Source: Candidatus Latescibacterota bacterium (GTDB lineage: Bacteria > Latescibacterota > UBA2968). Taken from it: a stretch of DNA of 64,000 bases. Location of the stretch: positions 3,552,001-3,616,000 of the forward strand of contig OZ242195.1 of NCBI GenBank assembly GCA_965205975.1, read 5' to 3'. Position 1 is the stretch's first letter. Each line of letters opens with the position of its first letter. A program made the translations under genes and the position numbers. The notes below the pieces were generated by a model. The model was not told where the DNA came from. It was given only the letters and a program-made list of their open reading frames with translations, and did no database searches. Of this stretch, positions 17,803-19,171 are shown one piece after another.

Positions 17803-17951
17803 GCTGCTGTCAACTGCCCTGAAGTCTCGCCACGCAGTGAGCGGTTTAAACCTAAGCCCTTGCTCGGATATGCTGCATTGCCTCCAATGGGTGGGTCAAG
17901 CACCTGGGGTGTGGCAGGGACAAGCCACCTGCTCAGCAGGTGGTGGTTGAC
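17803..17951 (+). mobile_element. Orphan right end of an IS200/IS605 (TnpB-type) element, omega-RNA-like scaffold
   Basis: Subterminal hairpin GCCACCTGC-TCA-GCAGGTGGT then GGTTGAC, preceded by GGGACAA. Upstream GCTGCTGTCAACTGCCCTGAA encodes AAVNCPE like TnpB C-tails, and GTCAAC at 17809 is complementary to the terminal GTTGAC. Confidence 0.7.
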
Positions 17952-17974
17952 AAGCATCAACCTTAAAGACCACC

Positions 17975-19171
17975 ATGCCTGTAATACTCACCATCAACGC
18001 CGGCAGTTCCTCGATTAAATACCAGTGCTTCGACATGCACAGCGAAGAATGCCTCGCAAAAGGACACGTCGAACGGCTGCTCTCTGCATCCGCAGAATTG
18101 TCTTACACGCGGCGGGATGGCGTCACCCATCGCATTCCCTTACCTCAAACCGCTCATGAAGCCGTATTTCAACGCATCTTTGAAATCCTTCTCCACCCGG
18201 AAAAGGGAATCCTCCGCACGCCCGATGAAATCCACGCAGTCGGCCATCGCGTTGTACACGGCGGCAGCCACTTCGCGGCCTCGACCCGGATCACGCCCGA
18301 AGTCGAAAAAACAATCGAACAGTGCGCCCCCCTCGCCCCACTACACAACCCCTTCAACCTGCGCGGAATTCGCGCCTGCCAGACCATACTACCCGACATC
18401 CCACACGTTGCGGTATTCGACACCGCATTCCACCAGACCATCCCGGACTACGCCCACACTTATGCCCTGCCCCACGCGATATCCGAACAATACCAAATCC
18501 GACAATACGGTTTCCACGGCATATCGCATCAATACGTCGCCAGGCGTGCAGCGGAAATTCTCAACTCGCCTTTGAAAACGCTAAAACTGATCACATGCCA
18601 TCTGGGCAACGGCTGTAGCATCACCGCCATCGAAAATGGAAAATCAATCGACACCAGTATGGGTTTCACACCCCTTCAGGGACTCGTAATGGGAACGCGC
18701 AGCGGAGACATCGACCCGGCGATCATCCTCTACCTGATTAGAGAACATCAGATGACGCCGGAGCAAATCGACCGGATGCTCAACCATCAAAGCGGTCTCA
18801 TCGGCGTATCTGGAATCGGATCAGACCTCAGAGATCTAATCGCCGTCCATGAGGAAAATCGGCGTGCGGCACTTGCAATCGACATCTTCTGCTACCGCAT
18901 CCGCCAGTACATCGGGAAATACGCGGCGGTACTCGACGGAATAGACGCGCTCGTATTCACCGCCGGAATAGGGGAAAACGCGCCACTCATACGGGCGCGC
19001 ATCTGTGAAAAACTCGGATTCTTGGGCGTACATCTCAACCGGACAAAAAACGAGGGCAACCCCATGAACGAAGCAATTCATCATGAGACCGCCCCGGTAT
19101 CCGTACTCGTCATTCCCACCAACGAAGAACTGATGATCGCGCGAGACACACTACGTGTGATTAAGAGCTAA
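17975..19171 (+). CDS. ackA: Acetate kinase
   Basis: INAGSSSIK, GHRVVHGG, APLHNP, FDTAFH, YGFHG, HLGNG, TAGIGEN, PTNEE. Confidence 0.97.
   Translation: MPVILTINAGSSSIKYQCFDMHSEECLAKGHVERLLSASAELSYTRRDGVTHRIPLPQTAHEAVFQRIFEILLHPEKGILRTPDEIHAVGHRVVHGGSHFAASTRITPEVEKTIEQCAPLAPLHNPFNLRGIRACQTILPDIPHVAVFDTAFHQTIPDYAHTYALPHAISEQYQIRQYGFHGISHQYVARRAAEILNSPLKTLKLITCHLGNGCSITAIENGKSIDTSMGFTPLQGLVMGTRSGDIDPAIILYLIREHQMTPEQIDRMLNHQSGLIGVSGIGSDLRDLIAVHEENRRAALAIDIFCYRIRQYIGKYAAVLDGIDALVFTAGIGENAPLIRARICEKLGFLGVHLNRTKNEGNPMNEAIHHETAPVSVLVIPTNEELMIARDTLRVIKS

What the first reader, a model, noticed from the sequence alone, without database searches (positions are those of the whole stretch)
17803..17975. 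Orphan TnpB-type omega-RNA scaffold whose would-be guide is the ackA leader
Seen: a ~150-nt structured segment with nested pairings (CCCTG/CAGGG, GCCAC/GTGGC, CATTG/CAATG, GGTG/CACC), a terminal hairpin, and GTCAAC complementary to the final GTTGAC. No tnpA or tnpB is in the window. Known: IS605 right ends encode the TnpB guide scaffold and the 3' flank becomes the guide. Here that flank is AAGCATCAACCTTAAAGACC, directly before the ackA ATG. Inference: a stand-alone guide for a trans-encoded TnpB or nuclease-dead TldR-like regulator, or a structured 5' UTR co-opted for ackA.
Basis: partly seen in the sequence, partly recalled or inferred. Interest (0 to 1): 0.7.

Follow-up and report, generated by a model that had tools for sequence, protein, structure and literature searches.

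The report
Gene-less guide-RNA transposon before ackA
The stretch is the tail of a small protein-less jumping element that recently landed in front of the acetate kinase gene and makes a guide-type RNA for a nuclease encoded elsewhere; such elements are known and it does not look like a regulator of that gene, but its front half carries an uncatalogued RNA domain shared with similar elements in distant bacteria.

Summary
The finding is the right end of a 431-nt, ORF-less IS200/IS605-type element (a PATE). The window copy (17550-17951) lost its first 29 nt. Two 99% sisters lie in the genome and ten more in seven congeners. It inserts after TTCAC without duplication. Two congeners hold the empty site, where the 'guide' is the end of a sulfatase gene, so the guide points at the vacant allele, not at ackA control. 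The scaffold matches resident TnpB elements with intact RuvC; no dead TnpB was seen. The element has its own promoter-like site and a covarying fold of about 350 nt. RNA contigs from three studies cover it; one leaves the genome 14 nt past the end into an A-tail. A 5' domain (17605-17670), not in Rfam, recurs in ORF-less IS605-end elements of Chloroflexota, Rubrobacteria and cyanobacteria, often followed by a boxA-like motif (not in this copy), while the pseudoknot varies in five paired forms. Guide-RNA-only PATEs are published, and this scan noted similar elements with 5' domains on other DNA (e1-6807824, e1-5393901; same domain not checked). Verdict: new variant of a known kind.

The parts
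17494..17549 (+). Host promoter-like site (17494-17521) and ribosome-binding site (17536-17543) of a mazE-type gene that is deleted in this genome; the deletion joins them to the middle of the element's left-end hairpin
   Evidence: promoter scan; G010 and G008 continue into an ATG here; 1834 and 2587 nt to the empty site; PF04014 in G010
17550..17951 (+). ORF-less IS200/IS605-type element (PATE), 402 of 431 nt; TAM and first 29 nt lost
17550..17577 (+). Remnant of the left end (3' arm of the subterminal hairpin and following bases); the intact left end of a sister is 80.6% identical over 62 nt to that of a tnpB-only element of a congener
17570..17598 (+). Sigma-70-type promoter-like site of the element (TTGCCG-17 nt-TATATT); a different -35/-10 pair with the same spacing is seen by eye in the 70%-identical subfamily
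   Evidence: 9 of 12 consensus; 3 sites found against 0.6 expected
17605..17670 (+). 5' RNA domain: closing stems around the motif AAAGGCACTCT..GAGTAAACGG (17624-17651); shared with ORF-less IS605-end elements in other phyla; no Rfam match
   Evidence: (covariation)
17678..17755 (+). Two further hairpins with compensatory changes, seen only in this lineage
   Evidence: helices 4 and 5
17758..17951 (+). Expanded omega-RNA-like scaffold: stem GGGCA/TGCCC carrying the GTCAAC loop, stem GTCTC-GCCAC/GTGGC-GGGAC, terminal hairpin 17924-17944, end GTTGAC (pseudoknot partner of 17809-17814)
17834..17876 (+). Hairpin insert absent from the tnpB-bearing relatives; 17854-17869 is a 16-nt reverse complement of the 3' end of the resident tnpB family
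   Evidence: no thermodynamic support for antisense action
17952..17971 (+). Flank in guide position; host DNA, the last four codons and stop of a deleted sulfatase gene plus spacer; matches the TTCAC-adjacent empty site at 20 of 20 in G008 and 19 of 20 in G010
17975..19171 (+). ackA (acetate/propionate kinase), a bystander

Best explanation
A protein-less IS200/IS605 hitch-hiker (PATE) built as a stand-alone guide-RNA gene. (1, shown) It inserted 3' of TTCAC, without target duplication, into the last codons of a sulfatase gene upstream of ackA. (2, shown by comparison; order inferred) A deletion then removed the mazE-type gene, the sulfatase gene, the TAM and 29 nt of the left end, so this copy is probably immobile. 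(3, promoter inferred, RNA partly shown) Its own promoter makes a roughly 350-nt folded RNA that runs through the right end into the flank. (4, inferred) A resident active TnpB of the same end family, for example the one in L004, binds the 3' scaffold in trans; the flank is trimmed to a guide of about 14-16 nt. (5, inferred from the published TnpB model) The complex cuts TTCAC-adjacent vacant alleles, so recombination restores or spreads the element; movement to new sites needs a TnpA in trans. (6, least certain) The conserved 5' domain replaces the tnpB mRNA as the expression platform: it protects an untranslated transcript and, in many members, is followed by a boxA-like antitermination signal. 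ackA is only read through.
For: Three copies in G000 at 99%. 13 elements at 10 sites in 8 of 61 genomes; TTCAC before 11 of 12 intact left ends, TATCAC before one. Exact empty site at ackA in 2 of 15 congeners and clean empty alleles in G000 for 4 sites filled in relatives, one with TTTAC in place of TTCAC. Scaffold aligns with the ends of resident tnpB elements; L004 is preceded by TTCAC (boundary read by eye) and keeps D172/E263/D347. Structure: 97.3% of cells paired, 13 of 83 pairs with double changes, 0 of 500 shuffles. RNA contigs in 3 of 3 RNA runs laid cover the element, in two runs with nothing else of the 1.8-kb stretch. In X5 the contig follows a flank for 14 nt, known from the orthologous empty site in 6 congeners, then turns into at least 13 A; the longest A/T run in G000 is 10. 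Pseudoknot hexamers covary in five forms, and the Rubrobacter element has the same form as a tnpB element beside it. Published precedent: bioRxiv 10.1101/2023.03.14.532601 and PMC10691335 (passages).
Against: No binding or cleavage test. The tailed end rests on one contig of depth 3.8 from another copy; contigs cannot show starts, strand or level, and DNA can be in an RNA library. The X1 contig starts at 17590, upstream of the predicted start, and runs 134 nt past the end into ackA. Covariation comes mostly from one split of 7 against 3 sequences. No TnpA in G000, though 13 of 20 congeners have a Y1 match. The scaffold has large inserts that could block TnpB loading. Many copies in G168 lack one base of the 'conserved' motif and still spread. 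The window element lacks the boxA-like motif.
Confidence: 0.7

Rival explanations
1. Passive PATE: it moves by TnpA alone and its RNA is made but no longer loaded by any TnpB; the 5' domain is inherited baggage.
For: Large inserts in the scaffold; motif variants still spread in G168; patchy distribution: besides the seed genomes, 0 of 150, 1 of 40 and 0 of 40 sampled genomes matched.
Against: Compensatory changes throughout the interior; pseudoknot kept in five forms; an RNA end at guide length.
Confidence: 0.17
2. Regulator of ackA: a guide for a nuclease-dead TldR, or a structured leader selected for ackA control.
For: The element sits 23 nt before the ATG; no terminator on the + strand; one RNA contig with strain differences joins element and ackA, so its promoter may feed ackA.
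Against: Absent at ackA in 15 of 15 congeners; 10 unrelated sites; TAM deleted at this locus; no near target in the genome; 7 of 7 full TnpBs keep D-E-D, whereas TldRs are RuvC-dead and act with adjacent guides on promoters (PMC10705468, passages).
Confidence: 0.05
3. The 5' domain is catalytic or a splicing element (IStron-like or a self-cleaving ribozyme) that frees the guide RNA or hides the insertion.
For: Invariant internal-loop bases across phyla (partly by construction); insertion inside a coding sequence; IStrons pair an intron with an omega-RNA (10.1101/2023.11.20.567912, passages).
Against: No group I or ribozyme match in Rfam for 14 loci and the window; the RNA starts inside the element, not at the left end; no joint in the three RNA runs; the element ends in C, not the G that group I introns need (recalled).
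Confidence: 0.05
4. An IscB/HEARO-type omega-RNA on the minus strand, with the same flank as a 5' guide.
For: The minus strand begins GTCAAC plus hairpin; one family member has a weak HEARO match on that strand (26 bits against a cut-off of 83).
Against: One-sided changes give G-U pairs on the + strand; promoter-like site and A-tail are on +; ends match tnpB elements. The RRXRR search found nothing, but its control rang nowhere, so it is uninformative.
Confidence: 0.03

Closest known systems
PATEs (palindrome-associated transposable elements; PMC3119063) and the omega-RNA-encoding PATE-like elements of Geobacillus stearothermophilus (bioRxiv 10.1101/2023.03.14.532601)
   Same: No terminal inverted repeats, subterminal palindromes, no target duplication, no transposase, multi-copy with strain-specific insertions, omega-RNA scaffold at the right end that needs TnpB in trans.
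   Different: Not a fusion of two ends left by core deletion: about 200 nt of non-tnpB, covarying RNA with its own promoter-like site, including a domain shared across phyla. The passages read describe no such domain; figures and supplements were not seen.
Stand-alone omega-RNAs of OMEGA systems (as summarised in PMC10691335)
   Same: Mobilised, without effector or transposase, in genomes with effector loci; reported to work in trans.
   Different: Longer (about 350 nt against 126 nt for processed AmaTnpB omega-RNA, PMC10278001), with extra 5' domains; activity untested here.
Resident tnpB-only (IS1341-type, label recalled) family of this genus: L004, L005, L008, L084; NCBIfam NF040570
   Same: Left end 80.6% over 62 nt, same scaffold order and GTTGAC end, TAM TTCAY; AmaTnpB has a TCAC TAM (PMC10278001).
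   Different: tnpB ORF replaced by structured RNA; scaffold expanded by inserts.
TldR systems (PMC10705468)
   Same: Guide RNA derived from an IS605 right end.
   Different: No dead TnpB, no adjacent gene, no promoter target, ends still mobile.
IStrons (bioRxiv 10.1101/2023.11.20.567912)
   Same: Large structured RNA plus omega-RNA inside IS605 ends.
   Different: No group I intron match, no spliced form seen.

Membership tests
PATE (IS200/IS605) | Subterminal palindromes related to IS605-type elements, no terminal inverted repeats | tested here: met
   the window copy keeps only half of the left hairpin
PATE (IS200/IS605) | No target duplication; insertion 3' of a short motif outside the element | tested here: met
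   Empty sites; TTCAC before 11 of 12 intact copies
PATE (IS200/IS605) | No transposase or nuclease ORF | tested here: met
   Six-frame translation; longest ORF 80 aa, with subfamily indels
PATE (IS200/IS605) | Mobilised by TnpA in trans | tested here: inconclusive
   Polymorphic insertions show movement; no TnpA in G000; an IS200 tnpA with the same hairpin lies in G006
TnpB omega-RNA (stand-alone) | Scaffold ending at the right end, with terminal hairpin and pseudoknot to the last bases | tested here: met
TnpB omega-RNA (stand-alone) | Transcript extending about 16-20 nt into the flank | tested here: inconclusive
   One low-depth RNA contig ends 14 nt into the flank before an A-tail; another runs on into ackA
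TnpB omega-RNA (stand-alone) | Compatible active TnpB in the genome | tested here: met
   L004 and L005 intact, NF040570, D-E-D kept; compatibility judged by sequence only
TnpB omega-RNA (stand-alone) | Binds TnpB and guides cleavage | not testable with these tools
   Needs RNP or interference assay
TldR system | RuvC-dead TnpB homologue | tested here: not met
   7 of 7 full-length TnpBs keep D-E-D; the eighth is a broken copy
TldR system | Guide matches a TAM-flanked promoter elsewhere | tested here: not met
   Best TCAC-adjacent match has 4 mismatches in 16 nt
IStron | Group I intron whose splice sites coincide with the element ends | tested here: not met
   No Rfam match; no joint in 3 RNA runs (contigs drop rare forms)
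HEARO / IscB omega-RNA | Match to RF02033 and an iscB/isrB partner | tested here: not met
   No RF02033 match at this element; the partner search was uninformative

The most novel reading that the evidence does not exclude
A cross-phylum family of RNA-only parasites of TnpB. One conserved 5' RNA module is a dedicated device (TnpB capture in trans, or protected expression with rRNA-type antitermination). It has been carried between phyla while the ends and pseudoknot were swapped to fit the resident TnpB. That would explain how stand-alone guides compete with a nuclease's own cis-encoded RNA, and would offer a natural part for expressing TnpB guides.
Probability: 0.3. Interest if true: 0.7.

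Novelty: new variant of a known kind. Interest (0 to 1): 0.45.

Why it matters
The role of stand-alone omega-RNAs is called unknown in PMC10691335. This family gives testable cases: defined ends, TAM, natural empty alleles, a candidate cognate nuclease in the same genome, transcript evidence with a guide-length end, and a conserved, uncatalogued 5' domain whose deletion can be assayed. For ackA itself the finding is ordinary: a recent insertion plus a deletion.

Tried and rejected
Rfam gave nothing relevant for the window stretch, L020, 6 loci and 7 loci. The family-specific pattern found nothing in metagenome or viral contigs; the element found nothing in plasmids. The relaxed 5' motif gave 2 viral hits, both in coding-like DNA and treated as chance. 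Dropped as chance by inspection: L102 and L116, L117, L118, L127, L130; none of these 8 passes the pseudoknot test. Antisense action of 17854-17869 on tnpB mRNA: seen only in this lineage, not in 5 other host genomes (up to 7 tnpB loci each); cofolding gain -9.9 against -9.1 +/- 3.7 kcal/mol for 100 shuffled partners; rejected. Resemblances to group I intron cores, c-di-GMP-I riboswitches and Cas12 tracrRNAs were recalled only and found no Rfam support. Searches of earlier findings by sequence were empty. Absence of ackA contigs in X5 and X6 is not evidence that ackA is silent. Paper searches for the motif letters (30 of 106 listed, titles unrelated), for PATE plus TnpB (45), RNA motif plus IS605 (64), boxA plus TnpB (76), orphan reRNA (77) and structured IS605 RNAs (92) showed no description of the 5' domain in listings; most subscription papers and all supplements were not seen.

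Full report
1. Observation. The segment alone folds only slightly better than chance (z -1.77) and has no Rfam match. BLAST against the genome showed that it is the end of a longer repeat: window 17550-17951 has two sisters at 99.3% and 99.0%, and its last 71 nt match (77% over 78 columns) the end of a broken tnpB element.

2. Element anatomy. A DNA search of 61 genomes matched 11. Reading the loci gave 13 elements in 8 genomes at 10 different sites; the other matches were tnpB right ends and one chance hit. Intact copies are 428-455 nt. TTCAC precedes 11 of 12 intact left ends and TATCAC one; all 13 end in GTTGAC. Near-identical copies lie in records titled Ca. Latescibacterota. G000 holds clean empty alleles for 4 sites filled in relatives, with no duplication. 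These are the features listed for PATEs in PMC3119063 (passages). The left end is 80.6% identical over 62 nt to that of a tnpB-only element in G006, and the right end aligns with resident tnpB elements. All 7 full-length TnpBs of G000 keep the D-E-D triad. G000 has no Y1 transposase; 13 of 20 congeners have a match, and G006 has an IS200 tnpA with the same hairpin.

3. The ackA site. ackA was found in 15 of 20 congeners; none has the element upstream. In G000 the mazE-type gene and the sulfatase gene (1834 nt in G010), the TAM and 29 nt of the left end are gone. The guide therefore matches the vacant allele (20 of 20 in G008, 19 of 20 in G010) and nothing in its own genome with fewer than 4 mismatches in 16 nt beside TCAC; the same holds for the two sisters' guides. 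A TldR-type or ackA-specific role is not supported. Read-through into ackA is plausible: no terminator was found, and one RNA contig joins the two.

4. The RNA. A promoter-like site lies at 17570-17598, just before the first stem. On 10 of the 13 copies (three near-identical ones left out) a structure of 83 pairs, built by me from the RNAalifold result and the tnpB comparison, has 97.3% of cells paired and 13 pairs with double changes, against 0 of 500 shuffles and at most 48% for slid partners; one helix (6) is only 70% paired in my register. Most changes come from one split of 7 against 3 sequences. One-sided changes give G-U on the + strand.

5. Expression. Of 21 runs listed I laid 3 RNA runs from 3 studies and one run of unrecorded kind; all are contigs only. 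X6 covers 17646-17909 and X5 covers 17621-17951, with nothing else of the stretch. X1 covers 17590-18085 at depth 48.7 beside 4-9 for neighbouring contigs; depth is a poor measure and the element is multi-copy. The X5 contig continues into a flank of another copy and then at least 13 A. Six congeners hold the orthologous empty site (TTCAC in five, TTCAT in one; the pattern asked for such a motif); the RNA follows it for 14 nt and then departs. G000 has no A/T run over 10. I read this as a non-templated tail on an RNA ending 14 nt past the element, near the 16-nt guide reported for a TldR RNA (PMC10705468, passage). It is one contig of depth 3.8.

6. The 5' domain. The motif at 17624-17651 was scanned for exactly. 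GTDB gave 15 hits: 9 Latescibacterota copies, 5 in Chloroflexota, Rubrobacteria and a cyanobacterium, and 1 dropped. Metagenomes gave 26 hits, of which 21 belong by inspection (several redundant), 17 with a recognisable IS605-type right end 190-360 nt downstream and 5 dropped. Because the motif's invariance there is by construction, I built a covariance model from 20 of these sequences (one, L114, is from unpublished G172). It finds only the three copies in G000. It also finds variants that lack the seed pattern: L153 (G054), L163 (G170), L224 (G336) and 19 more copies in G168, of which I read 18. All read show the same ORF-less architecture where the contig allows. The family is patchy: besides the seed genomes, 0 of 150, 1 of 40 and 0 of 40 sampled genomes matched. 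A strict test for a terminal hexamer with an upstream complement passed 26 of 49 loci, in five forms; several failures have a G-U wobble or are cut, and 0 of the 8 chance-like loci pass. The Rubrobacter element shares its pseudoknot form with a tnpB element beside it. In 12 of 25 distinct members a sequence matching this genome's own rRNA leader or spacer motif at 12-14 of 18 positions follows the domain, mostly 3-4 nt behind it; it is missing in the first 50 nt of the four Latescibacterota and five cyanobacterial members tested. Calling those rRNA motifs boxA rests on their position and on PMC13753749 (passages). Against a strict role, many G168 copies lack one motif base. No Rfam family covers the domain.

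7. Mechanism. Shown: element, ends, TAM, empty sites, deletion, fold, intact TnpBs, transcription of the family. Inferred: trans loading by TnpB and cutting of vacant alleles, following the model in bioRxiv 10.1101/2023.03.14.532601 (passages), which also states that PATEs often encode omega-RNAs acted on in trans; PMC10691335 (passages) reports stand-alone omega-RNAs working in trans with unknown role. The function of the 5' domain is my inference: an expression and stability platform replacing the mRNA that TnpB normally processes (PMC10278001, passages).

8. Literature seen. Passages only: the papers above plus 10.1101/2023.11.20.567912. Others: search listings only. No figures or supplements were seen; they, or subscription papers, may already show this domain. 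Earlier scan notes describe similar elements on other DNA; I could not check whether their 5' domains are the same.

9. Verdict. The element is a member of a known kind, with an uncatalogued cross-phylum 5' RNA domain and some native RNA support. Interest 0.45.

Noticed in passing
L025 (G016) and L014 (G020): Two subfamily elements only 71% identical occupy the same insertion site, while the right flanks are 91.5% identical; suggests repeated insertion or replacement by gene conversion. G000 has this site empty with TTTAC in place of TTCAC.
   Followed up: partly
window 17480-17533: A roughly 50-nt sequence around the host promoter-like site recurs in G000 (C1:4797004, 3142557) and 1-8 times in 16 of 20 congeners; a possible small intergenic repeat or shared promoter.
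   Followed up: no
window 17536-17579: The deletion puts the mazE-type ribosome-binding site in front of a GTG in the element, creating a 9-codon mini-ORF.
   Followed up: no
G168 (L161-L181): At least 20 copies of a short version of this element (TAM TCAT) in one Chloroflexota genome: a good system for excision and guide tests.
   Followed up: partly
G000:C1:3068174-3068196 and 4766344-4766365: Lone hairpins like the IS200 end of G006, possibly terminal-only remnants of a lost tnpA element.
   Followed up: partly
window 16439-17335 (-): 298-aa ORF conserved in congeners with no NCBIfam or Pfam match.
   Followed up: partly
L005 about 2000-3200: A CRISPR-like repeat array lies just downstream of an intact tnpB element (repeating translations).
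   Followed up: no
L231, L236, L239 (G017): A short repeated sequence starting TTGAC occurs at least 13 times in G017 only.
   Followed up: no
ackA upstream region in congeners (L037-L051): The gene before ackA differs among congeners (at least four different neighbours in 15 loci): a variable region.
   Followed up: partly
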